NCBI GenBank assembly: GCA_023246535.1
Contig: JAHFIF010000001.1
Span: forward strand, 14,688-27,696
Direction of reading: 5' to 3'
Origin: a bacterium
GTDB lineage: Bacteria > Patescibacteriota > Patescibacteriia > CAIQCM01
DNA length: 13,009 nt
Translations under genes and position numbers: made by a program
Notes under the pieces: generated by a model
Told to the model about the DNA's origin: nothing
The model's database searches: none
Seen by the model: the letters and a program-made list of their open reading frames with translations, nothing else
Shown here: positions 324 through 12,985 of the stretch, in pieces
Numbering within the stretch: position 1 is the stretch's first letter
How the letters are laid out: each line of letters begins with the position of its first letter

Positions 324-1133
324 TTAGATCTTGATGATGCGGGAAACGCGGCCGTCGCGCAGTTCGACGATGCCGGCGGTGACCCGGGCGCCCCAGCGCG
401 CTTTGGCGATCGCGCGTTCCACGTTGGCATGCGATGCGCGCAAGTCGGCAGTCAGTCGGTCGAGCTGCTCGTCGAAAGAGCGGAAGGCTTCGTCGCCGCC
501 GTAGCCGCCGCAATCCATGTGGATCGTGAGGTGGACTTGGGTGAGCGGCGTCGAGTCGTGGACGGCTCGCGCGAGATAGTCGATGAGATACGCGCCGCGT
601 GGGCTGCTCGGATCGGCGGCCCATTTGGCGCCGCCGGCCATGGTGAGGAGCGAATAGGCGCCCGGGCCGTACGCGCGTTCGAGCGCCGCAAGCAGGCCGC
701 CGTCGGCGCCATGCATGCGCCAGTCCATGCAGGCGACGGTCAGGTGCTCGGGAAGCGGCAGGTTGTAGCAGCCGAAGCGTCCCAGATCGACGGCCAGAAA
801 GACCGTGTCCGGAATGTCGACTAACTTTGCTAGTTCGTCGGCCAGATGCTGCGCTGATTTGGCGAGTGCGACGATCACGCGCCTGATGCCGTGGCGCTTG
901 GCGGCGGAGATAATGTGTTCCGCCAACATCTTGGCTTGCGTCGGATCGTTGCCGGCGGCGTCGTCGGGCACGGTGAGCAGGTCGTAGCGTCCGGGTCGTT
1001 CGCGTTTCAGCGTTTCCATGATCGCGCGAGCGACCGGCGGATCGTCCTGTTTGCCGAAATGGTGGGCGCCGGCGGCGGCGAGCGTGACAATGAGCGTCGT
1101 GCGTCCGCCGGCATGTTGGCCGCATGTGTCCAT
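324..1133 (-). CDS. Hypothetical protein (269 aa) with beta-carbonic-anhydrase-like zinc-ligand motifs (ACMDWR … IHMDCGGYGG) but a non-canonical, longer N-terminal region.
   Basis: Strong SD AAGGAGAA 4-5 nt upstream of the ATG at 1133, and a canonical promoter upstream. The CxDxR and HxxCGG motifs occur in the order seen in beta-CAs. The overlapping + strand ORFs (177-824 and others) start inside a terminator and read as Arg/Ala-rich GC-noise. Confidence 0.6.
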   Translation of the reverse strand: MDTCGQHAGGRTTLIVTLAAAGAHHFGKQDDPPVARAIMETLKRERPGRYDLLTVPDDAAGNDPTQAKMLAEHIISAAKRHGIRRVIVALAKSAQHLADELAKLVDIPDTVFLAVDLGRFGCYNLPLPEHLTVACMDWRMHGADGGLLAALERAYGPGAYSLLTMAGGAKWAADPSSPRGAYLIDYLARAVHDSTPLTQVHLTIHMDCGGYGGDEAFRSFDEQLDRLTADLRASHANVERAIAKARWGARVTAGIVELRDGRVSRIIKI

Positions 1134-1274: not shown

Positions 1275-3074
1275 TTAGCCGACAGGCTTGTCGCTGGCGG
1301 GCGGAACCGCGGTTCCCCCGAGGCGCTGCGACAGGCCTTGGACCAGACCGGTGAGCGTGCTGAGAGCAGTCATGGCCGCAGCCTGTGTCTGCGGGCCGGC
1401 CGCGTCGAGGAAACCCTCGGCGTTGTTGGCAATGCCCATGCCGTTCTTGAGTGCGCCGAGCAAGTTGGCGACGTCTTCGTGCGTGCCGACGACCGTGCCG
1501 GTGATCTTGCTGACCAGCGTCGCGGTGGCTCTGGCCGACTCGATCCGGACCTCAGCTTCCTTGCTGACACGCAGCTTGGCAAGCTCGAATTCCTGTGCCG
1601 CGGAGCCGTGTTTTTCGCGGGCCTCGAGCTCGTTCTGGAGCACTTCGACCCGGCGTTGTTCGACGTCGACCTCGGCCTTCTTGACCGTGATCGGCACCAT
1701 CTGCTCGGCCTGGAGACCTTCGGCGCGTTTTTTCGCGGCGGAGGAATCGGCGTCGGCTTTGGTCGTGATGGCCAAGGCATCGGCTTCGGATGCGGCTTTG
1801 CGACCCTCGGCGTTGGCCTTGAGGGTGTAGGCTTCGGCATCGGCAGCGCGCTGCTTGGTGACGTACTGGGAATCAGCCGCGCCTTTGGCGGCGATGACCT
1901 GTTTTTGCTGTTCACGATCGGCCTCGGCCACGACCGTCACGGTCGTAACGTCTTGGCGGGCTTTCTCGGCCTTGGCCTCGGCCTCGGCTTGCGTCTGAAC
2001 CGACCTGGCCTTCTTGGCCTCGGCCTCGGCAATGGCGGACAGCTTTTCACGAGTCGCGACTTCGATCGCTTCCAGCTTCTGCTGTTCCGCGACCTGCGTC
2101 GCCTTGTCTTTCTCGACGCCCTTGATCGCGATTGCTTGTTCGGTCTCGAGCCTCTTCTGTTCGGCCTCTTGGCGTTTCTGGGCGGTGATGATGGCGATTT
2201 GCGCCGCTTGCCCTTGTTCCGCCGTGGCCCTCTCTTGATCGAGCAAGAGGATGGCTTTGCGCGTTGCGACATCTTGGGAAGCACGGGCCTGATCGCCTTC
2301 CTTTTCCAGCGTGTTGACCTCGGTCTTCTTCTTCTGGACGATGGCGGCGATCGTCGCCAATCCCTGCGCGTCGAAGATGTTGTCGGCGCGCAGCTGCGAT
2401 TTTTCGGTCTGGTCGAGCTTGGAGATGGTCGCCACTTCGAGCGTGAGCCCGTTGTGCTTCAGGTCCGGGGAAACGATGCCGGTGACTTCTTTGACAAAGG
2501 CATCGCGTTCGGAGTTGAGCTCCTCGAGCGTCTTGGTCGCGGCCACCGTCCGCAAAGCGGAGATGAGCTTGTCCTCGACCAGCGTCTCCACCGGCGATTT
2601 TCCCAATCCGTTGCGGCCGTTGTCGCGGGCGTATTCCATCACGCCGCCGAACGAACGAGCCGCTGCCTGAATGCTGTCGCTGTCGGGCATGACGCGGACG
2701 AAGAATTCGGCCTGGACGTCGGCACGCAGCTTGTCTTTGGTGATGAGAGCGTCCTTACCCTCGCGTCCGACCGGCAAGCGCAGGGTCTTGAGCGAGATGG
2801 ACACGACCTGATGGATGACCGGCACGACTAGGCATCCGCCATCCATGATGACCTTGATGCCGCCCATGCCGGTGCGGACGAATGCCTCGGAGGCCGTCGT
2901 TTTCTTGTACAGCTTGGTGATCGTGAGGATGATGCTGGCGACGACGGTGACGGCGATGCCGCACACCATGAGGATGGTTGTCGGCAAAGCGCCGAGCGAG
3001 TGGTTGGCGGCGTTGGCCGCGACTGGCCCGATCAGCATCACGAGCCCGAAGATGATCAATATGACAGCGCCCAT
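1275..3074 (-). CDS. Flotillin-family SPFH/Band-7 protein (FloT/YqiK-like), 599 aa. It has N-terminal hydrophobic segment(s), an SPFH domain, and a long Ala/Glu/Lys/Gln-rich coiled-coil with EA repeats.
   Basis: The residues …ILTITKLYKKTTASEAFVRTGMGG… align with the FloT N-terminus and SPFH core. There is an extended AEAEAKAEKA-type repeat region. SD AAGGAGAA precedes the ATG at 3074. It is paired with an NfeD gene immediately upstream, as in yqiJK/yuaF-floT. Confidence 0.9.
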   Translation of the reverse strand: MGAVILIIFGLVMLIGPVAANAANHSLGALPTTILMVCGIAVTVVASIILTITKLYKKTTASEAFVRTGMGGIKVIMDGGCLVVPVIHQVVSISLKTLRLPVGREGKDALITKDKLRADVQAEFFVRVMPDSDSIQAAARSFGGVMEYARDNGRNGLGKSPVETLVEDKLISALRTVAATKTLEELNSERDAFVKEVTGIVSPDLKHNGLTLEVATISKLDQTEKSQLRADNIFDAQGLATIAAIVQKKKTEVNTLEKEGDQARASQDVATRKAILLLDQERATAEQGQAAQIAIITAQKRQEAEQKRLETEQAIAIKGVEKDKATQVAEQQKLEAIEVATREKLSAIAEAEAKKARSVQTQAEAEAKAEKARQDVTTVTVVAEADREQQKQVIAAKGAADSQYVTKQRAADAEAYTLKANAEGRKAASEADALAITTKADADSSAAKKRAEGLQAEQMVPITVKKAEVDVEQRRVEVLQNELEAREKHGSAAQEFELAKLRVSKEAEVRIESARATATLVSKITGTVVGTHEDVANLLGALKNGMGIANNAEGFLDAAGPQTQAAAMTALSTLTGLVQGLSQRLGGTAVPPASDKPVG

Positions 3075-3111
3075 TGGTTCTCCTTTTCTTTCCGTAACGT
3101 TGTTGGTATCT

Positions 3112-3753
3112 CTACTGGTTGTGATTGTAAGCTTCGATCAGGTACGTGTCGTCTCCTTCCCTGTAGTCGATGATGATGGCTTCGCTGCCGCGCGGCAGCT
3201 CCTCTCCGTCGGTCCGGCAATCGACCTGCTTCAGGTCGCGTTGCTTGTCGTAGACTTGGATCACGCCGGATGTGGCGCTGGCCGCGACGACCAGGGTTCC
3301 GGTGCAGCCGATGATCGCTCTCTTGGAGAGAGCGCTCGTTTCAAGCGTCGGAACGACGCGATGGAACAGCTTGGCGATCTTCCCGGTGAGGAAGGTCATC
3401 GCGACGAAGGAGGCGATCAGCGAGATCCATCCGTAGGCGGCCGGAAAGCGGAGAATTGGCGCGAGCAGCCGGTTAGCGACCGTGCCGGTCACGCCGAAAA
3501 TGAGGGCCGCGATCATAAGGAGGACGGTGATCGGGATTTTACCAACCCCGAAGAGCATGAAGGCGCGATTGAGCGCGCCCTGTTCATGTTCGTGGTTTCC
3601 GTCGGTATCATGGTGCACGTCGTGCTGAATGTCATGGCTCAGGTCATGTTCGGCCTCATGGCCGAACCCTAGGGCCAGCCCGAGCGCGAGCAGAATGCCG
3701 ATCATGAGCGGGATGTTGAAAATCAAATTCTGCCATGCAAATAGCGTCTCCAT
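3112..3753 (-). CDS. NfeD-like (YqiJ/YuaF family) membrane protein with a C-terminal OB-fold domain, 213 aa. Carries a His/Asp-rich loop.
   Basis: TM helices followed by a C-terminal beta-rich domain (…GCTGTLVVAASATSGVIQVYDKQRDLKQVDC…) typical of short NfeD. It sits immediately upstream of the flotillin gene on the same strand with a 37-bp gap. SD-like AAAGGACAGG precedes the ATG. Confidence 0.85.
   Translation of the reverse strand: METLFAWQNLIFNIPLMIGILLALGLALGFGHEAEHDLSHDIQHDVHHDTDGNHEHEQGALNRAFMLFGVGKIPITVLLMIAALIFGVTGTVANRLLAPILRFPAAYGWISLIASFVAMTFLTGKIAKLFHRVVPTLETSALSKRAIIGCTGTLVVAASATSGVIQVYDKQRDLKQVDCRTDGEELPRGSEAIIIDYREGDDTYLIEAYNHNQ
3583..3660 (-). repeat. In-frame 12-nt periodic tract encoding (H-D/E-x-x)n, HEAEHDLSHDIQHDVHHDTDGNHEHE, with 8 His in 26 residues.
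   Basis: Recurrent ..catg.. units are visible on the + strand at about 12-nt spacing. The translation shows His every 4th residue. Confidence 0.6.
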
Positions 3754-3840
3754 TTCCTGTCCTTTCGTTCGTTGTTGCGGATTTTCAAGGGCCGATTATC
3801 GGTCCGCTTTGGAATTTTTCCCAAAACTGGCGGATTTCGT

Positions 3841-3869
3841 TTTTTACCTCATGGATCGTTTTATGTCAA
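3841..3869 (-). promoter_or_regulatory. Candidate promoter of the NfeD-flotillin operon: -35 TTGACA (3864-3869), 17-bp spacer, weak -10 TAAAAA (3841-3846).
   Basis: On the - strand: TTGACAtaaaacgatccatgaggTAAAAA. The leader to the ATG at 3753 would be about 85 nt. Confidence 0.3.
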
Positions 3870-3896
3870 TAGAGAGAATAAACGCCTTTAAGGATT

Positions 3897-3929
3897 AAAA
3901 AACGCCCGTTCACAAAGCGTGAACGGGCG
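3897..3929 (-). terminator. Rho-independent terminator of the gene 3940-4995.
   Basis: 11-bp stem cgcccgttcac/gtgaacgggcg with loop aaagc at 3903-3929. On the - strand it is followed by TTTTTTAATCC (+ strand A6 at 3897-3902). It lies 10 nt past the stop (3940-3942). Confidence 0.7.
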
Positions 3930-3939
3930 AAACGAGGCG

Positions 3940-4995
3940 TTATTTTGTTGGGAAGAGCGGCAGATTGCCGAGAGCGATGACGTCGGGGCGCGTCCCGCCT
4001 TCGGTGTAGGCGGCCATGACGGCGCCTTCTTCGGCGTGCGCTAGCGCGAGAAGCTGGCGCACCGCGATCAGCGTGCCGCCGGTCGAGACGACATCGTCGA
4101 CGATCGCGACTTTGAGACCGCTGATGCGGTCGGCGTCATCGCGGCCGAGGAACAGGTGTTGGATCTTGTCGGTCGTGATGCTTCGGAAGCGGACCTTCAA
4201 AGCCGGCGCCGCCATGTAGGGCTTGAGCTCCTTTCTGGCGACGAAGGTCGGCAGGTTGGCGATCCGTCCCATCACGTGGAGGAGCGCAAGCGCCTTGCCG
4301 TCGGGCATGAGCAAGGCCTGCGTTCCTTTGGGAATCAACTTGACCAGCTCGGCGCCGATCGCTTCGGTCAATTCCCAGTCGCCCAGCAAGTTGAAGAGCG
4401 CGACGCGAACGCCGGGCGCCACTTCACGGATCGGCAGGTCGCGAAAGACGTTGCCAATCACAATGCGGTAGGTCTCGGTTTGGCCTGTAGGTTTTTCCGC
4501 CCACTTGGCCAAGGCCTTGATTACCGCCTCGGTGATGAAGACCGAACGCGATTTCCTTCCGCCGGTCAGATAGAGATGCGGGTCGTCATGGCGCGAACCG
4601 ACGTTCTCGGCGAGAACTTGTCCAGCCGTGACCTTGTCAAAACCGCGGCGGCGCGCTTCGTCGACGATGTGGGCCGGAAAGACCACGGCCTCGGACTCGG
4701 CGACCGATTCGCTGCCATCCGGGGCGATCACGACGACCACGGCCACGTCGACGGTATTGAACGGCGTGCGGCGCAGGCCGTTCTCGATCCCGATGGCAAA
4801 GGCGTTGGGAAACTTTCGATGCGCGGCCAGGGCGCGATTTCGTGCGCCGGTTTCGATCTCGTCTTCTTTGGGCTGCGGTGGCACGCCCGAATCGGATTCG
4901 GTCGTGTGATCGAGCGGTCCGTAGTGAAGAATGTCCAAGGCGGCCTGAACGCCGTTGGCCTTTAGAATGCTGGTCGACGAAAGTGCGAATTCCAT
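3940..4995 (-). CDS. Two-domain fusion protein (351 aa): an N-terminal YjjX-family (NTPase_I-T / DUF84) inosine/xanthosine triphosphatase domain, and a C-terminal type-I phosphoribosyltransferase domain (APRT-like).
   Basis: The N-terminal half carries …SGVPPQPKEDEIETGARNRALAA…FAIGIENGL…HLYLTGGRKSRSVFITEAVIKAL, matching the YjjX signature SGVPEQP…GARNR…AIEAGI…GKLTRASVYHQAVILAL. The C-terminal half carries the PRPP-binding motif KVAIVDDVVSTGGTL. Strong SD AAAAAGGAGAAcc precedes the ATG at 4995, with a textbook promoter upstream. Confidence 0.75.
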   Translation of the reverse strand: MEFALSSTSILKANGVQAALDILHYGPLDHTTESDSGVPPQPKEDEIETGARNRALAAHRKFPNAFAIGIENGLRRTPFNTVDVAVVVVIAPDGSESVAESEAVVFPAHIVDEARRRGFDKVTAGQVLAENVGSRHDDPHLYLTGGRKSRSVFITEAVIKALAKWAEKPTGQTETYRIVIGNVFRDLPIREVAPGVRVALFNLLGDWELTEAIGAELVKLIPKGTQALLMPDGKALALLHVMGRIANLPTFVARKELKPYMAAPALKVRFRSITTDKIQHLFLGRDDADRISGLKVAIVDDVVSTGGTLIAVRQLLALAHAEEGAVMAAYTEGGTRPDVIALGNLPLFPTK

Positions 4996-8113: not shown

Positions 8114-9205
8114 ATGCGCATTCTCATCATCCACGATCGTTTCCAATTCCGCGGCGGGGCCGAACGGATGGTTTTGGACATGTGCAAAATGCTCGGCGCC
8201 GACTTGGTGACGGAATTTTGGACGGATGAGACGTTCTCGCAAAGCGATGTGCCGCACAAACTGACGGTTCTTGATAAGGGCGAACCCAAGGCGATGGTTT
8301 TTCGGTATTTCCGCTCGCAATGGAATTTTTGGTGGAAGACGCGGAAACTGATCCGCGAATACGACACGCTGATCTTCTCCGGCAATAATTGCTTGGCCGC
8401 CGCTTTGCGCCCGTTGCATGGAAAAAAGACGATCCTTTATTGCCACAGCCCGGTGCGCTATGTTTACGACCTGCTGTCGTTCCGGCGCGGCATGGAGCCG
8501 TCGTTCTTAAAAAGATTTTTTTATTACGATATCGGCAAATACCTCATCCGCGGCCTCTATCGGCTGGGGCTTGGCCGCATGAAGGTCGTCATCGCCAATT
8601 CCGAAAACGTCCGCGGGCGGCTGCAGTATTATTGCCACACCGAATCGCAAGTAATTTATCCGCCCATTCAAACGGACAAATACCGCTTCATCGAACAAGG
8701 AGATTACTACCTGTCGTGGGCGCGCCTCGACGAACTTAAGCGCGTCGAGCGCATTGTTTGGGCTTTCCGGGAAATGCCGGACAAGAAATTGATCGTCGCC
8801 TCGGGCGGCGAGCGCGAGGCCGCCATCCGCAAGCTGGCCGAAGGCGCGCCGAACATCTCCGTGCTCGGCTGGGTCGATAATGAAAAGCTTTACGATTTGG
8901 TCGGCCGTTGCATCGCCGGCATCTATCTTCCGATGAACGAGGACTTGGGCATGACGCCGCTCGAAGGCATGGCCGCCGGCAAGCCGTGCATCGGGGTTGA
9001 TGAAGGCGGCCTTAAAGAAACGATCATCCCCGGGGAGACGGGGACGCTCATCAGCGCGGCCGCGCCGATCAATGAACTGGTTAACGCCGTGCGCGTGCTC
9101 ACCCCGGCGCGGGCCGCCGCCATGCGCGCCGCCTGCGAGGCGCAAGCCAAGAATTTTTCCCTCGAAGTTTTTGAAAAGAAGATCCGCGCGGCGATCGGTC
9201 AATAA
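8114..9205 (+). CDS. GT4-family (GT-B fold) retaining glycosyltransferase, 363 aa.
   Basis: The N-terminal MRILIIHDRFQFRGGAER matches the GT4 MKIL…GG.E signature. The C-terminal E-x7-E motif is present (EDLGMTPLEGMAAGKPCIGVDEGGLKETI). There is no SD. The gene may be leaderless or weakly initiated. Confidence 0.85.
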   Translation: MRILIIHDRFQFRGGAERMVLDMCKMLGADLVTEFWTDETFSQSDVPHKLTVLDKGEPKAMVFRYFRSQWNFWWKTRKLIREYDTLIFSGNNCLAAALRPLHGKKTILYCHSPVRYVYDLLSFRRGMEPSFLKRFFYYDIGKYLIRGLYRLGLGRMKVVIANSENVRGRLQYYCHTESQVIYPPIQTDKYRFIEQGDYYLSWARLDELKRVERIVWAFREMPDKKLIVASGGEREAAIRKLAEGAPNISVLGWVDNEKLYDLVGRCIAGIYLPMNEDLGMTPLEGMAAGKPCIGVDEGGLKETIIPGETGTLISAAAPINELVNAVRVLTPARAAAMRAACEAQAKNFSLEVFEKKIRAAIGQ

Positions 9206-10473
9206 TTGAATTGCTCGAAAATGATATTTTCGGGCCGAACGTGTTTTGCCAGCAATTGTTTTTTCAAAGCGTTCATCATGCCTTCGGGGCCGCAGATGAA
9301 TATCTTCTTGTTCTTGAGGCCGCCGGCGCGTTTTTCCACGATGTCGGCGGTCAAATGCCCGCGCCGGTCGCTTTCGTGCAAATGCAGTTTGAAGGCGTTG
9401 GGCACGGCGGCGAGCATCGTCAATTCATTGCTGTAAACGCAGTCATCGGTGCTGTGCGTTGAGCAGAAAAAATCGTTTTTGCCGTTCACGGCTCGGCCGC
9501 GAAAGGCGGACATGAAAGGGGTGACGCCGATCCCGCCGGCGATGAAAATGCTTTCCATATTGGGATCAAGTTCCGAAAAGAATTTTCCGTACGGACCGAA
9601 GACGGTGACCTCGTCGCCGACCGCAAGTTTGGCAAGGTCCTTGGTGAAATCGCCGACGTTTTTTGCCGCAAAACGCAGTTCACTGTCGTTGGGCGCCGAG
9701 CTGAAGGAGAAAGGGTGCGCTTCGGCGGAAACGCTCTTTGAATGAAACGAGAAATAGGCGAATTGTCCCGGCTGGAAAGCAAGGCGCGCCTTTTTGGGCG
9801 ACAAAGTTATTTCGACGATGCCCGCGCCTTTGTCGTTGACCGCTTTGACCGCGTACGCGGCTTGCGGCGCCATGAAGCGGTAGAACAATTCGCGATAGAT
9901 CCACGCGATCGCGCCTAGCGCGACCGTGACGATGATGAAGATGCGCAGCGGCTGGTAGCGGGAAATGTCGCTCGTGATAAAAAGCAAATGATAGATGCCA
10001 AAGGCGAAGGGGATGGCGAAGAATTTTTGGATCAGCGTGAAATACTTGTAGGGGATCTTAAAATAGATGATCGTGACGACGATCCCGGCCATCGTTAGCA
10101 AACCGATCTCGCCGGCGATGAAAATGACATTGCCGGTCAGGAGCGAATAGATCGGGGCGCCGCCGAGGCCGTAGCCGATCGCGACCGCCAGGCCGTGGAT
10201 CGCCAGCAGGCCACCCGACCACGAGCCGGTCTGGTGATGGAGGCGGTAAGCGCGATCCAATCCGCCGCAGGCTTCTTCGATCAAATACGTTCGCGATGCC
10301 AGGATGAAGGAGACGGCGAAAAGGAGCGTCCCGAGGAGCGCGGCCAGCTGGCCGAGCGAGATGAAGGGCGAGGCCAAGACCGCGGCCAGCGTCGGTTTGG
10401 ATAAAAGCCAAAGCAGGATGGTCAGCGTCGCGGACAAGAAAATAATGTAGATCGCCGGTCGCTTGGGTGACAT
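9199..10473 (-). CDS. NOX/FRE-family flavocytochrome (424 aa). It has an N-terminal 6-TM ferric-reductase-like heme domain and a C-terminal FNR-type FAD-binding (HPFSFSS) and NAD(P)H-binding (GGIGVTPF … CGPEGMM) dehydrogenase domain. Bacterial NADPH-oxidase-like, SpNOX-like architecture.
   Basis: Motifs: HPF[ST] FAD motif, GGxGxTP and CGP NAD(P)H motifs. TM-helix His residues H79/H80 and H93 are 13-14 apart, as on NOX TM3, and H162 lies on a later helix. The ATG at 10473 lies 1 nt after the stop of the upstream b5-like ORF (TAA-t-ATG), implying translational coupling. The 3' end overlaps the GT4 stop by 7 nt. Confidence 0.8.
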   Translation of the reverse strand: MSPKRPAIYIIFLSATLTILLWLLSKPTLAAVLASPFISLGQLAALLGTLLFAVSFILASRTYLIEEACGGLDRAYRLHHQTGSWSGGLLAIHGLAVAIGYGLGGAPIYSLLTGNVIFIAGEIGLLTMAGIVVTIIYFKIPYKYFTLIQKFFAIPFAFGIYHLLFITSDISRYQPLRIFIIVTVALGAIAWIYRELFYRFMAPQAAYAVKAVNDKGAGIVEITLSPKKARLAFQPGQFAYFSFHSKSVSAEAHPFSFSSAPNDSELRFAAKNVGDFTKDLAKLAVGDEVTVFGPYGKFFSELDPNMESIFIAGGIGVTPFMSAFRGRAVNGKNDFFCSTHSTDDCVYSNELTMLAAVPNAFKLHLHESDRRGHLTADIVEKRAGGLKNKKIFICGPEGMMNALKKQLLAKHVRPENIIFEQFNY

Positions 10474-10474
10474 A

Positions 10475-10768
10475 TTATTTAACGAGGTAGCGTTGGATCA
10501 TCTGCAAGTTGTCGCCATGCTGTCCGTGGAAGGTCGCGCTCATATCCGTGCCGCATTGAAAGATGTCGCCGCCGGTGTGGGTGTTGCGCAGCGATTCAAC
10601 GTCGTATTTTTGTCCGTCGATCGTGATGATGCAAGTTGACGCCGCCGGAGACGGGCTCATATTTGGCGCCGTTGGTGGCGGCTGGGTTTTTATATAGAGC
10701 AGCGTGCCGGCGATCGCGACGCCGACGATGAGGGCGTAAAAAATAATTTTGGGGAGCAGTTTATTCAT
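10475..10768 (-). CDS. Small N-terminally membrane-anchored protein (97 aa) with a Pro-rich linker and a short cytochrome-b5-like heme-binding domain (HTGG … GQHGD).
   Basis: STCIITIDGQKYDVESLRNTHTGGDIFQCGTDMSATFHGQHGDN aligns with the b5 core [47 protein letters not shown]. Both axial-His positions are conserved. It is in an operon with, and coupled to, the NOX-like gene. There is no SD. The domain is shorter than canonical b5. Confidence 0.5.
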   Translation of the reverse strand: MNKLLPKIIFYALIVGVAIAGTLLYIKTQPPPTAPNMSPSPAASTCIITIDGQKYDVESLRNTHTGGDIFQCGTDMSATFHGQHGDNLQMIQRYLVK

Positions 10769-10791
10769 ATATATATGAGGGTTTTGCCACC

Positions 10792-10820
10792 TTGATGATA
10801 CCAGATATTAATGATAATGT
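10792..10820 (+). promoter_or_regulatory. Candidate promoter for the nifS/iscS operon in the AT-rich divergent region: -35 TTGATG (10792-10797), 17-bp spacer, -10 TAATGT (10815-10820). The leader would be short (about 17 nt) with no SD. A leaderless start from AATTAT/TATTAT (10833-10841) is an alternative.
   Basis: TTGATGataccagatattaatgaTAATGT. No GGAGG-like element precedes the ATG at 10845. Confidence 0.3.
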
Positions 10821-10844
10821 GATAGGCTCTTCAATTATTATAGT

Positions 10845-12059
10845 ATGCCCGAGTCTCCGGAAATATATCTCGACCACGCCGCCACCGCGCCGCTCGACCC
10901 CAGGGTCAAGGCGGCAATGTTGCCGTACTTGGAAGGGGATTTCGGCAATCCGTCCTCGCTGCACATTACCGGTCGCCGCGCCAAGCAGGCGCTCGACGAT
11001 GCGCGCGACGACATCGCCAAAATCCTGCATTGCCGCGCCAGCGAACTCATCTTTACTTCCGGCGGAACAGAGGCCGACAATTTGGCAATCCTTGGCATCT
11101 ACCGGGCATACAAAGAAAAAGGCAACCGAATTGTTACAACGACCATCGAGCATCACGCGGTTCTCAACCCCGTCGAACATTTGGTTAAAAAAGAAGGCGC
11201 CGAGGCGCTCTTCGTCAAAGTCGACCGCGACGGTTTGGTTGATCCGGCGAATATCATTGCCGCGCTTACTGACAAGACGCTCTTGGTTTCGGTCATGTAC
11301 GCGAATAACGAGATCGGCACGATTGAACCGATCGCCGCCATCGGCCAAGCGATCGCCGCTTGGAAAAAAGCCAACAATCGCAAGCCGTCCGAGGCTCCGT
11401 ACTTCCATACCGACGCCTGCCAGGCGGCCGGCGCGCTGTCGCTCGACGTGAACGAGCTGGGGTGCGACCTGCTGACCCTGAACGGCTCGAAGATCTACGG
11501 TCCGAAAGGCGTCGGCGTGCTGTACGTTCGCACCGGCCTGCGCCCCGAACCGCTCATCTACGGCGGCGGTCAGGAGTGGGGGCTGCGTTCCGGCACGGAA
11601 AACATCGCCGCGATCGTCGGTTTGGCCAAAGCCCTGGCATTGAGCCAAGCGGAACGGGAAACGGAAAACGCGCGACTCGTCGCCTTGCGCGACAAGCTCA
11701 TCGCCGGCTTGCTACAGATCCCAAAAACGCGCCTGAACGGCCATCCGACCAAACGCTTGCCCAATAACGCCAACGTTTCCATCATGGACATTGAAGGCGA
11801 GGCCATGCTGCTTTATCTTGATGAGGCCGGCTTCCGCGCCTCCACCGGTTCGGCTTGCACTTCGGCTTCGCTCGACCCGTCGCACGTCATCGCCGCCATC
11901 GGTTTGCCGTACGAAGCGGCGCACGGTTCGATGCGCTTCACGCTCGGCCACGCGACGACCGAAGCCGACGTGGAAAAACTTTTGAAAACCCTGCCGCCGA
12001 TCGTGGAAAAGCTGCGTCAGCTTTCCCCGGTGCGCCTGAACATGAAACATTACGCCTAA
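10845..12059 (+). CDS. iscS: Cysteine desulfurase, class-V aminotransferase group I (IscS/NifS type), 404 aa.
   Basis: Near-full-length similarity to IscS. PEIYLDHAATAPLDPRV matches the N-terminus. The PLP-Lys region reads LNGSKIYGPKGVGVLYVR. The active-site Cys loop reads STGSACTSASLDPSHV. The C-terminus reads …LSP. It is followed by NifU-like and ferredoxin genes. Confidence 0.9.
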   Translation: MPESPEIYLDHAATAPLDPRVKAAMLPYLEGDFGNPSSLHITGRRAKQALDDARDDIAKILHCRASELIFTSGGTEADNLAILGIYRAYKEKGNRIVTTTIEHHAVLNPVEHLVKKEGAEALFVKVDRDGLVDPANIIAALTDKTLLVSVMYANNEIGTIEPIAAIGQAIAAWKKANNRKPSEAPYFHTDACQAAGALSLDVNELGCDLLTLNGSKIYGPKGVGVLYVRTGLRPEPLIYGGGQEWGLRSGTENIAAIVGLAKALALSQAERETENARLVALRDKLIAGLLQIPKTRLNGHPTKRLPNNANVSIMDIEGEAMLLYLDEAGFRASTGSACTSASLDPSHVIAAIGLPYEAAHGSMRFTLGHATTEADVEKLLKTLPPIVEKLRQLSPVRLNMKHYA

Positions 12060-12064
12060 ACCCT

Positions 12065-12706
12065 ATGTCCACGCCCGACGTTGTTTCGCACGATAAAAAA
12101 GACAAATGGCTCTATTCCGACATTGTTAAGGATCATTTTTTCAATCCCCGCAATTTCATGGTCGATGACGACGGCTACAAGGCCGACGGCATGGGCATGG
12201 TCGGCTCGCCGGCCTGCGGCGACATGATGACCGTTTGGATCAAGGTCGATCCGGCCACGGAACGGGTCGTCGACATGCGGTGGCGCACCTTCGGCTGCGG
12301 TTCGGCGATCGCCTCGACCTCGATGCACTCGGTCATGGTCGTGGAGGACGGCGGCCGGACCATCGACGAAGCGTTGGCCATTCGTCCGCAACACATCATG
12401 GAGCGCCTGGGCGGACTGCCGAACCGGAAGATCCACTGCTCGGTCCTTTCCGACAAAGCCCTGCGTTCCGCCGTCAATGATTATTTCCGGAAGACCGAAC
12501 AGATCAGCCGGATTACGACCGAAGGCGTGCGCGTGATCGACAAAGTCTTGAAGATAACCGATCATGACATTGAAGAAGCGGTCTTGGAAGGCGCCGATTC
12601 GCTCGAGAAAGTGCAGGCGCGCACCAAGGTCGGCACCGGCGACCCGTCCTGTTTGCCGGAAGTCGAACAACTGATAAGATTTTATAAAGAGAAATATTTT
12701 GGCTAA
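12065..12706 (+). CDS. nifU: NifU-type Fe-S cluster scaffold. It has an N-terminal IscU/NifU domain (three conserved Cys) and a C-terminal degenerate BFD-like domain, 213 aa.
   Basis: The scaffold motifs SPACGD, FGCGSAIAS and HCS are present. LPNRK replaces the IscU LPPVK. The ATG at 12065 lies 5 nt after the iscS stop. The ORF track's upstream extension to 11855 overlaps iscS and is rejected. The C-terminal …VGTGDPSC… resembles BFD GTGCGSC with Cys residues lost. Confidence 0.85.
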   Translation: MSTPDVVSHDKKDKWLYSDIVKDHFFNPRNFMVDDDGYKADGMGMVGSPACGDMMTVWIKVDPATERVVDMRWRTFGCGSAIASTSMHSVMVVEDGGRTIDEALAIRPQHIMERLGGLPNRKIHCSVLSDKALRSAVNDYFRKTEQISRITTEGVRVIDKVLKITDHDIEEAVLEGADSLEKVQARTKVGTGDPSCLPEVEQLIRFYKEKYFG

Positions 12707-12709
12707 CCT

Positions 12710-12985
12710 ATGAAATTAAAAATCTCCGTCGATCCCGATCTTTGCTTCGGCGCCGCCTCCTGCGTCACTGTTTCGCCGTCGCATTTTCGCCTGAATGACA
12801 AGAATAAAGCCGAGGTGCTGGAGGAGGGGGGAGACATCATGCCGGGAAATCCGATTTACGAGCGCATTATTGAAGCCGACGAAGCCAAGCGCGACGAATT
12901 GATCCTCTCCGCCCAATCCTGCCCCGTCTCCGCCATCTCCATTTGGGACATGGAAACCGGCGAACGCCTTTACCCGAAAGATTAA
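12710..12985 (+). CDS. Small single-cluster ferredoxin of the Pyrococcus/Thermotoga type (CxxAxxC … CP; 3 Cys ligands), 91 aa.
   Basis: KLKISVDPDLCFGAASCVTV…SAQSCPVSAISI parallels P. furiosus Fd [20 protein letters not shown]…CPVSAITI. The ATG lies 3 nt after the nifU stop, in the same operon. Confidence 0.65.
   Translation: MKLKISVDPDLCFGAASCVTVSPSHFRLNDKNKAEVLEEGGDIMPGNPIYERIIEADEAKRDELILSAQSCPVSAISIWDMETGERLYPKD

What the first reader, a model, noticed from the sequence alone, without database searches (positions are those of the whole stretch)
3583..3660. Periodic (H-D/E-x-x)n histidine tract in the first loop of the NfeD-like protein
The translation HEAEHDLSHDIQHDVHHDTDGNHEHE has 8 His and 9 Asp/Glu in 26 residues, with His recurring every 4th residue. 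The underlying DNA has a visible ~12-nt period. An i,i+4 His/Asp register puts all ligands on one face of a helix. That is a classic design for cooperative Zn/Ni/Cu binding. Such a tract is not part of the canonical NfeD/YqiJ architecture, so the NfeD-flotillin pair here may be metal-responsive or may bind metal. A repetitive tract like this is also a candidate for length variation by slippage.
Basis: seen in the sequence. Interest (0 to 1): 0.5.

Follow-up and report, generated by a model that had tools for sequence, protein, structure and literature searches.

The report
Conserved His/Asp loop of YqiJ-type NfeD
The histidine/aspartate-rich stretch is real, but it is the normal, flexible, probably cytoplasmic first loop of this branch of the YqiJ (flotillin-partner) membrane protein family; it may bind metal ions or protons, but nobody has tested that.

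Summary
Window 3583-3660 (minus strand) encodes HEAEHDLSHDIQHDVHHDTDGNHEHE. These are residues 32-57 of a 213-aa YqiJ-type NfeD protein (3112-3753, minus strand), and a 599-aa flotillin gene lies 37 bp downstream.

The claim that the tract is foreign to the family is not. Among 153 relatives, 119 carry at least 4 His in the same loop. Loop His content is 13.5%, against 1.3% elsewhere in the proteins. The His and acidic columns align in register with this gene.

The family motif is a strict every-second-residue acid repeat. The other positions alternate between His and a hydrophobic residue (H-D-φ-D/G). That is a period of 2 and 4, not the 3.6 of an α-helix. AlphaFold2 leaves the tract as low-confidence coil, while the three membrane helices and the OB barrel reach pLDDT above 90.

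Conserved Lys/Arg positions and the known orientation of NfeD and flotillin place the loop in the cytoplasm.

The DNA carries no tandem repeat, and an 89%-identical relative keeps the same length and all 8 His. Slippage here is therefore unsupported. One homologue cluster does differ by exactly one HHDV unit.

Best reading: a disordered cytoplasmic loop that binds cations or protons. This is inferred and untested.

The parts
3112..3753 (-). CDS of a 213-aa YqiJ-type (NfeD2-like) inner-membrane protein
   Evidence: ORF and translation. Pfam PF21001 YqiJ_N: 4e-12, 46.8 bits against a cut-off of 23. hhalign to E. coli YqiJ: 96.9% probability, E=1.7e-10, over aa 61-210. 1100 relatives at E<=1e-3.
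3583..3660 (-). His/acid tract, aa 32-57: five H-[D/E]-φ-x units followed by GNHEHE. This is the finding.
   Evidence: Family columns are in register: D/E at aa 33, 35, 37...49 in 52-86% of relatives; His at aa 36, 40, 44, 48, 54, 56 in 46-75%. AlphaFold2 gives coil with pLDDT about 40-60.
3673..3735 (-). Membrane helix 1 (aa 7-27)
   Evidence: AlphaFold2 helix 7-27 with pLDDT above 90 in the 56-sequence model. Hydropathy peak of 2.47.
3553..3579 (-). Short helix aa 59-67 at the end of loop 1, before the conserved GVGK(72)IP motif
   Evidence: AlphaFold2. K/R at aa 72 in 91% of relatives; G71 and P74 invariant.
3463..3531 (-). Membrane helix 2 (aa 75-97)
3355..3444 (-). Membrane helix 3 and its cytoplasmic extension (aa 104-133), carrying the conserved K128 and R132
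   Evidence: K/R at aa 128 in 74% and at aa 132 in 91% of relatives.
3130..3324 (-). C-terminal five-stranded OB-like β-barrel (aa 144-208), the NfeD soluble domain
   Evidence: AlphaFold2 strands with pLDDT 93-98. Foldseek top hits are all NfeD domains: 8z5g YbbJ, 3cp0, 2k5h, 3wwv (TM 0.84, rmsd 1.8) and 2k14 YuaF.
1275..3074 (-). 599-aa flotillin-like SPFH/Band_7 protein, 37 bp downstream on the same strand (operon partner)
   Evidence: Pfam Band_7 7.9e-17. The same YqiJ_N then Band_7 gene order occurs in E. coli yqiJ-yqiK and in L004, L005, L006, L008 and L009.
3903..3929 (-). Terminator-like hairpin of the upstream gene. It separates the yqiJ-flotillin pair as its own transcription unit.
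   Evidence: 12-bp stem with 8 GC pairs, followed by TTTTTT.
3795..3824 (-). Promoter-like site upstream of the yqiJ-like gene (consensus match only)
   Evidence: TTGGGA-18-GATAAT, 9 of 12 matches.

Best explanation
The tract is this gene's copy of a loop that typifies its branch of the YqiJ family. YqiJ proteins are the three-helix, OB-domain NfeD partners of YqiK-type flotillins.

Shown here: the loop between membrane helices 1 and 2 is a low-complexity segment of variable length. An acidic residue occupies every second position. The positions in between alternate between His and a small or hydrophobic residue, giving the unit H-D-φ-D/G. The loop is nearly free of Lys and Arg and is predicted to have no fixed structure.

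Inferred: the loop lies on the cytoplasmic face, on the same side as the OB domain and the flotillin SPFH assembly. There it acts as a flexible, strongly negative ligand array of imidazoles and carboxylates. It reversibly binds divalent cations (borderline metals such as Zn, Fe(II), Ni or Co where His is abundant; harder cations in the Asp-only variants) and/or protons. Binding would condense the loop and could change how helices 1 and 2, and so the NfeD-flotillin assembly, behave at the membrane. This resembles the cytosolic His-loops of ZnT/CDF transporters.

The identity part is near certain (about 0.95). The cation-binding function is an inference, and the confidence figure below refers to it.
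For: Identity:
- Pfam YqiJ_N, hhalign to E. coli YqiJ, NfeD OB fold and flotillin synteny.

Family-wide loop:
- Across 153 relatives the loop median is 49 aa (range 8-101).
- His is 13.5% in the loop against 1.3% elsewhere. D+E is 26% against 7.9%. K+R is 2.1% against 7.3%.
- 119 of 153 relatives have at least 4 His.
- The probability that an acid follows an acid is 0.43-0.58 at even lags and 0.02-0.10 at odd lags. His recurs at lag 4.
- The conserved columns are in register with this gene.

Selection on His:
- The 89% relative has 13 of 26 tract codons changed (79.5% nt identity against 90-97% elsewhere).
- It still keeps 8 of 8 His, and 3 of those use a different His codon.

Flexibility:
- pLDDT is about 40-60 with no helix or strand in two AlphaFold2 runs, while the rest of the protein is above 90.

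Cytoplasmic side:
- K/R is conserved at aa 72 (91%), 128 (74%) and 132 (91%). This gives 1.35 + 2.16 K/R per protein on the loop-1/C-terminal side, against 0.30 + 0.54 on the N-tail/loop-2 side.
- The NfeD OB domain is cytoplasmic and binds flotillin (PMC11222466). YqiK is predicted to face the cytoplasm (PMC10434171).

Analogy:
- ZnT/CDF His-loops are cytosolic and sit between membrane helices. Their length and His number vary, and they recruit Zn (PMC10932157).
- Disordered His-rich loops bind Zn in PA4063 (PMC8561739).

Possible link to metals:
- Deleting the YqiK-type flotillin SO1377 in S. oneidensis lowered EPR-detectable free iron threefold.
- The authors of that study speculated that the DUF1449 partner SO1376 is a metallochaperone (PMC1468410).
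Against: - No metal-binding data exist for any YqiJ protein in the literature searched.
- 12 of 153 relatives have no His in the loop, and 19 have at most one. Their loops read DADADA or DVDVDV. His is therefore dispensable for whatever the loop's common function is.
- The Pfam model barely rewards the His. Changing His to Gln costs 1.2 bits and acid to amide costs 3.4 bits, while a neutral linker costs 9.9 bits.
- No metal-transport or metal-regulator gene is consistently adjacent.
- The membrane helices carry no charged residues that could form a transport site.
- Free cytoplasmic Zn and Ni are very low (general knowledge), so a low-affinity loop may normally be empty.
- The S. oneidensis partner is reported to have only two His, at positions 151 and 155, so it has no His tract (PMC1468410).
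- Loop His count does not track the conserved Cys179/His175 of the OB domain.
Confidence: 0.4

Rival explanations
1. The loop is a non-specific polyanionic spacer. It is a disordered, strongly negative tether that keeps helices 1 and 2 or neighbouring protomers apart, repels anionic lipids, or contacts a basic surface of the flotillin. His is just one tolerated filler residue, and there is no specific ligand.
For: - The universal feature is the acid at every second position and the near absence of K/R. Median net charge is -11, ranging down to -35.
- His-free variants exist in 12 of 153 relatives.
- Length ranges from 8 to 101 aa.
- The tract is the fastest-evolving part of the gene.
- It is predicted to be disordered.
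- The Pfam model rewards acids more than His.
Against: - His is enriched tenfold over the rest of the protein.
- His sits in fixed columns (46-75%) with a regular period of 4.
- All 8 His survive in the 89% relative although half the tract codons changed.
- A pure charge spacer would not need a strict alternation with hydrophobic residues.
Confidence: 0.3
2. The loop is a pH sensor or proton antenna. Clustered His-Asp pairs at the cytoplasmic membrane surface titrate near neutral pH. Protonation would neutralise and collapse the loop onto the anionic membrane, coupling the flotillin microdomain to cytoplasmic or surface pH.
For: H-D dipeptides dominate: 464 HD in the family loops, and 7 of 8 His in this gene are followed by D/E. 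The position is membrane-proximal and the loop is tethered at both ends. That His imidazole titrates near pH 6-7 is general chemistry.
Against: No experimental or contextual link to pH was found. His-free variants exist. This reading cannot be separated from metal binding by sequence alone.
Confidence: 0.12
3. The tract forms an α-helix that lines up the His and Asp residues (i,i+4) on one face for cooperative Zn/Ni/Cu binding.
For: Five His lie at exact i,i+4 spacing. i,i+4 His pairs can chelate metals on helices (general knowledge). Metal binding could induce a helix that AlphaFold2 would not show.
Against: - The periodicity is exactly 2 and 4, not 3.6.
- Family acid power is 2.45 at 180 degrees against 0.14 at 100 degrees.
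- The tract's hydrophobic moment is 0.47 at 180 degrees against 0.25 at 100 degrees.
- With an acid at every second residue, a helix would carry carboxylates all the way round.
- AlphaFold2 predicts no helix in aa 31-58. The only exceptions are a 3-4 residue turn at aa 39-42 in the first run and aa 32-34 in the second.
- Gly is 13% of family loops.
Confidence: 0.08
4. The tract is a slippage-prone contingency repeat, and its length varies within populations to switch or tune the protein.
For: Loop length varies from 8 to 101 aa across the family. In one cluster at 96-97% identity, P0163 lacks exactly one HHDV unit relative to P0009 and P0162.
Against: - This gene has no tandem DNA repeat.
- Its longest repeated word is 9 nt, with copies 60 nt apart.
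- His and Asp codons are mixed (CAT/CAC, GAC/GAT).
- The 89% relative has the same length.
- Any unit indel would stay in frame, so it could not act as an on/off switch.
Confidence: 0.03

Closest known systems
E. coli YqiJ (b3050; Pfam YqiJ_N PF21001 + YqiJ_OB PF07290, formerly DUF1449), encoded upstream of the flotillin gene yqiK
   Same: Both have three N-terminal membrane helices and a C-terminal OB-like domain. Both genes sit directly upstream of a flotillin gene. Homology by hhalign is 96.9% probability. Loop 1 has a similar length, and the E. coli loop also contains His and Asp ([22 protein letters not shown]).
   Different: The E. coli loop is degenerate, with 5 His, 3 Asp and no regular repeat. 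The window protein has five regular H-D/E-φ-x units. The window protein misses the PF07290 sequence model, although its fold matches. It also has the Cys179 motif that E. coli lacks.
Canonical NfeD proteins: E. coli YbbJ (PDB 8z5g with QmcA), B. subtilis YuaF (2k14), P. horikoshii 1510-C (3wwv)
   Same: Three membrane helices plus an OB-like barrel, partnered with an SPFH protein. These are the top Foldseek hits. In this family the OB domain is cytoplasmic and binds the flotillin (PMC11222466).
   Different: YbbJ is 152 aa and has no long loop between helices 1 and 2 and no His/Asp tract. Sequence similarity is marginal (hhalign probability 11%). Pfam NfeD PF01957 is not matched.
Cytosolic His-loop of ZnT/CDF zinc transporters (between TM4 and TM5); His-rich loops of ZIP transporters
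   Same: A cytosolic loop between two membrane helices, rich in His. Its length and His number vary widely among family members, and it is flexible. In ZnT7 it recruits Zn to the transport site (PMC10932157).
   Different: Those loops belong to transporters with an intramembrane HxxxD metal site. The YqiJ helices have no charged residues. The strict acid-at-every-second-residue pattern is a feature of the YqiJ loops found here, and I have not compared it with ZnT loops. No metal binding has been shown for YqiJ.
Disordered His-rich loops of periplasmic zinc-trafficking proteins (ZnuA, P. aeruginosa PA4063)
   Same: His- and acid-rich loops that are disordered in the apo-protein and contribute to micromolar Zn binding (PMC8561739).
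   Different: Those loops are periplasmic and sit in soluble proteins. The YqiJ loop is tethered to the membrane at both ends and is probably cytoplasmic.
S. oneidensis SO1376 (DUF1449) / SO1377 (YqiK-type flotillin)
   Same: The same two-gene unit. The SO1377 knockout changes free iron, siderophore output and H2O2 sensitivity. The authors speculated that SO1376 is a metallochaperone (PMC1468410).
   Different: SO1376 is reported to have His only at positions 151 and 155, so it has no His tract. The phenotype was for the flotillin gene, not the YqiJ homologue.

Membership tests
YqiJ family (Pfam PF21001 YqiJ_N / former DUF1449) | Match to the YqiJ_N profile above its gathering score | tested here: met
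   46.8 bits against a cut-off of 23; aa 14-120 match profile positions 6-113 of 116.
YqiJ family (Pfam PF21001 YqiJ_N / former DUF1449) | Three N-terminal membrane helices with a long loop between helices 1 and 2 | tested here: met
   AlphaFold2 helices at 7-27, 75-97 and 104-133/139, plus hydropathy. Deleting the tract drops the profile score to 22.4 bits, and TM1 is no longer aligned.
YqiJ family (Pfam PF21001 YqiJ_N / former DUF1449) | C-terminal YqiJ_OB domain (PF07290) by sequence profile | tested here: not met
   No PF07290 hit at E<=0.01. E. coli YqiJ and some relatives do hit. However, hhalign aligns the domain to E. coli YqiJ and the predicted fold is an NfeD OB barrel. The domain is therefore present but divergent.
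YqiJ family (Pfam PF21001 YqiJ_N / former DUF1449) | Gene directly upstream of a flotillin (SPFH2/YqiK-type) gene on the same strand | tested here: met
   The Band_7 gene starts 37 bp downstream. The same order is seen in E. coli and in five other loci.
NfeD (SPFH-partner) superfamily | C-terminal five-stranded OB-like β-barrel resembling solved NfeD domains | tested here: met
   The top five Foldseek hits are all NfeD domains (8z5g_AA, 3cp0, 2k5h, 3wwv, 2k14). TM-score by target reaches 0.84 at rmsd 1.8-2.2.
NfeD (SPFH-partner) superfamily | Match to the Pfam NfeD profile (PF01957) | tested here: not met
   No hit at E<=0.01. hhalign to YbbJ gives only 11% probability. Membership rests on fold and gene context.
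Metal-binding His-rich loops of membrane proteins (ZnT/CDF His-loop type) | Cytosolic, flexible, His-rich loop between two membrane helices, variable in length across the family | tested here: inconclusive
   Composition, variability and predicted disorder are met. The cytosolic side is inferred from conserved K/R positions and from the orientation of NfeD and flotillin (PMC11222466; PMC10434171). It has not been measured.
Metal-binding His-rich loops of membrane proteins (ZnT/CDF His-loop type) | Host protein is a metal transporter with an intramembrane metal site | tested here: not met
   The three helices contain no Asp, Glu or His. Family helices average at most 0.15 D+E and at most 0.13 His per helix.
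Metal-binding His-rich loops of membrane proteins (ZnT/CDF His-loop type) | Demonstrated metal binding | not testable with these tools
   This needs ITC, ICP-MS or IMAC on the peptide or the protein.
Slippage-prone simple-sequence contingency tract | Tandem array of (near-)identical DNA units | tested here: not met
   Tandem Repeats Finder returns no array at score 30 or above. The longest repeated word is 9 nt, with copies 60 nt apart. The codon-shuffle p for the lag-12 signal is 0.08.

The most novel reading that the evidence does not exclude
The (H-D-φ-D)n loop is a genuine metal- or proton-sensing module, which makes YqiJ-YqiK flotillin assemblies responsive to cytoplasmic transition-metal or pH status. 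Loading of the loop would gate the assembly or the client capture of the flotillin cage, or the loop would buffer metal at the membrane. This would give bacterial flotillin microdomains a previously unrecognised input signal. It would also explain the iron and oxidative-stress phenotypes of the S. oneidensis flotillin mutant.
Probability: 0.2. Interest if true: 0.65.

Novelty: new member of a known kind. Interest (0 to 1): 0.33.

Why it matters
For this window the result is mostly deflationary. The tract is a typical feature of the gene's family branch, not a special acquisition, and it does not mark this locus as metal-related.

At family level it raises a small, concrete and testable question. 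Bacterial flotillin-NfeD pairs still lack a defined input or ligand. A large branch of YqiJ-type partners carries a conserved, regularly patterned His/Asp loop on what is probably the flotillin-facing side of the membrane. None of the papers I could search mention this loop.

If the loop binds metal or protons, it would supply a regulatory handle for these microdomains. If it does not, it is a well-defined example of a conserved acidic disordered linker.

Tried and rejected
1. DNA tandem repeat or slippage. Tandem Repeats Finder found nothing and the word analysis found only a 9-nt repeat. A repeat finder failed on the strand argument and was replaced by a script.
2. Other strand and other frames. 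The plus-strand ORFs 2815-3672 and 3629-3898 overlap the tract but have no Pfam match. The minus-strand frame is fixed by homology and synteny.
3. A promoter-like hit inside the tract (3635-3607, minus strand). It is made of the CATGAC/CATGAT His-Asp codons, and I treat it as chance.
4. Solved structures by sequence: no PDB hit even at E<=10.
5. Wider locus collection.
   - The 56- and 8-sequence alignments were too divergent for the search for related loci.
   - The genome scan gave one locus.
   - Both metagenome scans gave none.
   - The plasmid tblastn gave none.
   - Population-level length variation of this exact gene therefore could not be checked beyond the one 89% relative.
6. The profile search of the word-indexed database returned only 13 proteins, probably because the low-complexity loop swamped the candidate list.
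7. Taxonomy of His-rich versus His-free variants. The cluster look-ups carried almost no names.
8. The idea that the loop feeds a Cys/His site in the OB domain. Loop His count is not higher in proteins with Cys179 or His175. It is slightly lower with Cys179 (p=0.04). His-poor proteins keep Cys179 in 17 of 19 cases. Rejected.
9. Iron-sulfur genes in the window (NifU, cysteine desulfurase, ferredoxin, ferric-reductase-like). They lie more than 5 kb away, beyond unrelated genes and a terminator, and are not conserved next to yqiJ in other loci. They are not evidence for a metal role.
10. Weak Pfam hits of homologue loops to Gp5_trimer_C and TrAA12. These are below cut-off and reflect low complexity.
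11. One literature search was badly framed and returned nothing useful.
Full report
**1. What is there**

On the minus strand, 3583-3660 translates to HEAEHDLSHDIQHDVHHDTDGNHEHE. These are residues 32-57 of a 213-aa ORF at 3112-3753.
- The tract holds 8 His, 5 Asp and 4 Glu. The other 187 residues hold only 2 His.
- The chance of such a window is about 5e-6 at a 2% His background.
- The first twenty residues are five units of H-[D/E]-φ-x: HEAE, HDLS, HDIQ, HDVH, HDTD.
- Seven of the 8 His are followed by an acid (shuffle p=0.00025).

- Lag-12 identity is 0.47, but a codon shuffle gives p=0.08.
- Tandem Repeats Finder finds nothing.
- His and Asp codons are mixed, and the longest repeated word is 9 nt.

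**2. The gene and its neighbours**

The protein matches Pfam YqiJ_N (46.8 bits against a cut-off of 23). A profile of its relatives aligns to E. coli YqiJ over TM2, TM3 and the C-terminal domain (hhalign 96.9%, E=1.7e-10).

AlphaFold2 with 56 relatives gives mean pLDDT 86. It predicts helices at 7-27, 75-97 and 104-139 and a five-stranded barrel at 151-208. The five best PDB matches are all NfeD soluble domains or the whole NfeD protein YbbJ (8z5g, 3cp0, 2k5h, 3wwv, 2k14).

A 599-aa SPFH/Band_7 flotillin-like gene starts 37 bp downstream. The same gene order is found in E. coli yqiJ-yqiK and in five other loci. A strong terminator hairpin at 3903-3929 separates the pair from the upstream NTPase/APRT fusion gene. 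'NfeD-like protein paired with a flotillin' is therefore correct.

The window comes from a metagenome contig (ENA ERZ27279563).

**3. The tract is a family feature, not an oddity**

An exhaustive HMMER search found 1100 relatives at E<=1e-3. I aligned the best 150, together with the three distinct homologues from the first word-index search (153 relatives in all), and extracted the loop between TM1 and the conserved GVGK/R-xP motif.
- Loop length has a median of 49 aa and ranges from 8 to 101.
- His is 13.5% in the loop against 1.3% in the rest of the proteins.
- Asp+Glu is 26% against 7.9%. Lys+Arg is 2.1% against 7.3%.
- 119 of 153 relatives have at least 4 His, and 56 have at least 8.
- Typical loops read HDVDHDVDHDVEHEH, HDIDHDIDHDVHHDFDHDHDLHHDLHHDV or HDLGHDLGHDVEHDVGHDTEHD.

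Column by column, relatives carry Asp/Glu at the query's positions 33, 35, 37...49 (52-86%). They carry His at 36, 40, 44, 48, 54 and 56 (46-75%). The window's tract is therefore in register with the family consensus.

The Pfam profile has match states for the loop.

| Variant of the window protein | YqiJ_N score (bits) |
|---|---|
| Native | 46.8 |
| aa 32-57 deleted | 22.4 (below the cut-off of 23; TM1 no longer aligned) |
| Tract replaced by a neutral Gly/Ser/Thr/Asn linker | 36.9 |
| Asp/Glu changed to Asn/Gln | 43.4 |
| His changed to Gln | 45.6 |

The broad Pfam family therefore expects an acidic loop of this length. The strong His enrichment belongs to the branch this gene sits in.

E. 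coli YqiJ has a degenerate version ([22 protein letters not shown]). The generic NfeD protein YbbJ has no such loop.

I found no mention of this loop in the searchable literature on YqiJ, DUF1449 or NfeD.

**4. Anatomy of the repeat**

The dominant rule in the family is an acid at every second residue.
- The probability that an acid is followed by another acid is 0.43-0.58 at even lags and 0.02-0.10 at odd lags.
- The positions in between alternate between His and a small or hydrophobic residue. After H-[D/E], position 3 is V, A, H, L, I... and position 4 is D, G, E, H.
- Twelve relatives have no His at all and read DADADA or DVDVDV.

The spectral power of the acid pattern is 2.45 at 180 degrees and 0.14 at 100 degrees. 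In the window's tract the hydrophobic moment is 0.47 at 180 degrees and 0.25 at 100 degrees. These are integer periods of 2 and 4, not the 3.6 of an α-helix.

Both AlphaFold2 runs leave aa 31-58 as coil at pLDDT of roughly 40-60, apart from a 3-4 residue turn that differs between the runs. The 'one face of a helix' picture is not supported. A flexible or extended segment is the better description.

**5. Selection and length change**

An 89%-identical relative (P0002, contig L003) has the same tract length.
- The tract is the most diverged part of the gene, at 79.5% nt identity against 90-97% elsewhere.
- Thirteen of its 26 codons changed, 6 of them non-synonymously.
- All 8 His and all acidic positions are kept, and 3 His use the other codon.
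- On its own this is weak (the chance that 6 replacements miss 8 of 26 sites is about 0.08, my calculation), but it agrees with the family-wide column conservation.

Length does change over evolutionary time. In a cluster at 96-97% identity, one member lacks exactly one HHDV unit in a more perfectly repeated tract. Relatives P0003, P0004 and L004 differ by small indels.

For this gene there is no repetitive DNA substrate, so active slippage is unlikely.

**6. Which side of the membrane**

There are three membrane helices.
- Lys/Arg is conserved at the end of loop 1 (aa 72, 91%) and after TM3 (aa 128, 74%; aa 132, 91%).
- That side averages 1.35 + 2.16 K/R per protein, against 0.30 + 0.54 for the N-tail plus loop 2.
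- By the positive-inside rule (established knowledge), loop 1 and the C-terminal domain are cytoplasmic.

This agrees with published work. The NfeD OB domain faces the cytoplasm and binds flotillin (PMC11222466), and YqiK is predicted to face the cytoplasm (PMC10434171).

The tract is strongly hydrophilic and is not buried in the membrane. The cytoplasmic placement is inferred, not measured.

**7. How it most likely works**

Shown: a conserved, flexible loop that is tethered to the membrane at both ends. It is strongly negative, with a net charge of -8 here and a family median of -11. It carries regularly spaced imidazoles and carboxylates.

Inferred (about 0.4): it reversibly binds divalent cations and/or protons on the flotillin-facing side, and loading condenses the loop.
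- The nearest functional analogues are the cytosolic His-loops of ZnT/CDF transporters. These also vary in length and His number, and in ZnT7 they recruit Zn (PMC10932157).
- A second analogue is the disordered His-rich loops that bind Zn in PA4063 (PMC8561739).
- A hint of a metal link comes from S. oneidensis. Deleting the YqiK-type flotillin SO1377 altered free iron and H2O2 sensitivity (PMC1468410). However, its YqiJ partner has no His tract.

Against a specific metal role:
- His-free variants exist.
- The Pfam profile gives His little weight.
- No metal genes are consistently adjacent.
- The helices carry no charged residues.
- Loop His count does not correlate with the conserved Cys179/His175 of the OB domain.

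The main rival (0.3) is a non-specific polyanionic spacer. A pH-sensor reading (0.12) cannot be separated from metal binding by sequence alone.

**8. Verdict**

The window's tract is an ordinary member of a family-typical loop, so it is a new member of a known kind.

The family-level pattern is regular and conserved, and as far as I could find it is undescribed. That makes it a modest but testable lead for how flotillin-NfeD assemblies might sense their environment.

Noticed in passing
Homologue cluster P0009 / P0162 / P0163 (not in the window): Three 96-97% identical YqiJ homologues differ internally by exactly one tetrapeptide unit (HHDV) inside the His/Asp tract. This is a unit-sized indel among near-identical relatives.
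   Followed up: partly
window 3217-3219 (Cys179), 3247-3249 (Asp169), 3340-3342 (Glu138); minus strand: The OB domain and its linker carry highly conserved polar residues in this branch. Cys179 is present in 117 of 153 relatives, Asp169 in 136 and Glu138 in 138. His occupies the query's position 175 in 80 of 153, giving the motif GNxHQVxCRT. E. coli YqiJ lacks the Cys. Loop His count does not correlate with it.
   Followed up: partly
L004 3236-3919(-); L005 4178-4867; L008 1622-2254; L009 1546-2178: A DedA/VTT-domain membrane protein gene sits immediately next to the yqiJ-like gene in four related loci (three distinct contexts). It is not next to it in the window, in L006 or in E. coli.
   Followed up: partly
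window 3940-4995 (-): This is a single 351-aa ORF. It fuses a DUF84 NTPase domain (ITPase/XTPase type, Pfam NTPase_I-T) to an adenine-phosphoribosyltransferase-like domain (NCBIfam PRK07322, 3.6e-50). It is followed by a strong terminator hairpin at 3903-3929.
   Followed up: no
window 324-1133 (-): A 269-aa ORF lies 141 bp downstream of the flotillin gene on the same strand and has no Pfam or NCBIfam match. The genes that follow the flotillin in related loci are also unannotated but differ in size (107-121 aa).
   Followed up: no
window 9199-12985: This region holds a cluster of iron- and redox-related genes: a ferric-reductase-like FAD/NAD membrane protein with a small cytochrome-b5-like ORF, a cysteine desulfurase (Aminotran_5), a NifU_N+BFD protein and a ferredoxin. 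It lies more than 5 kb from the yqiJ gene and is not conserved next to yqiJ elsewhere, so I did not count it as evidence for a metal role.
   Followed up: partly
E. coli K-12 locus L010 (NC_000913.3 511000-517000): The other E. coli NfeD-SPFH pair, ybbJ-qmcA, lies between cueR (copper regulator) with copA on one side and the iron exporter genes fetAB on the other. This may be coincidence.
   Followed up: no
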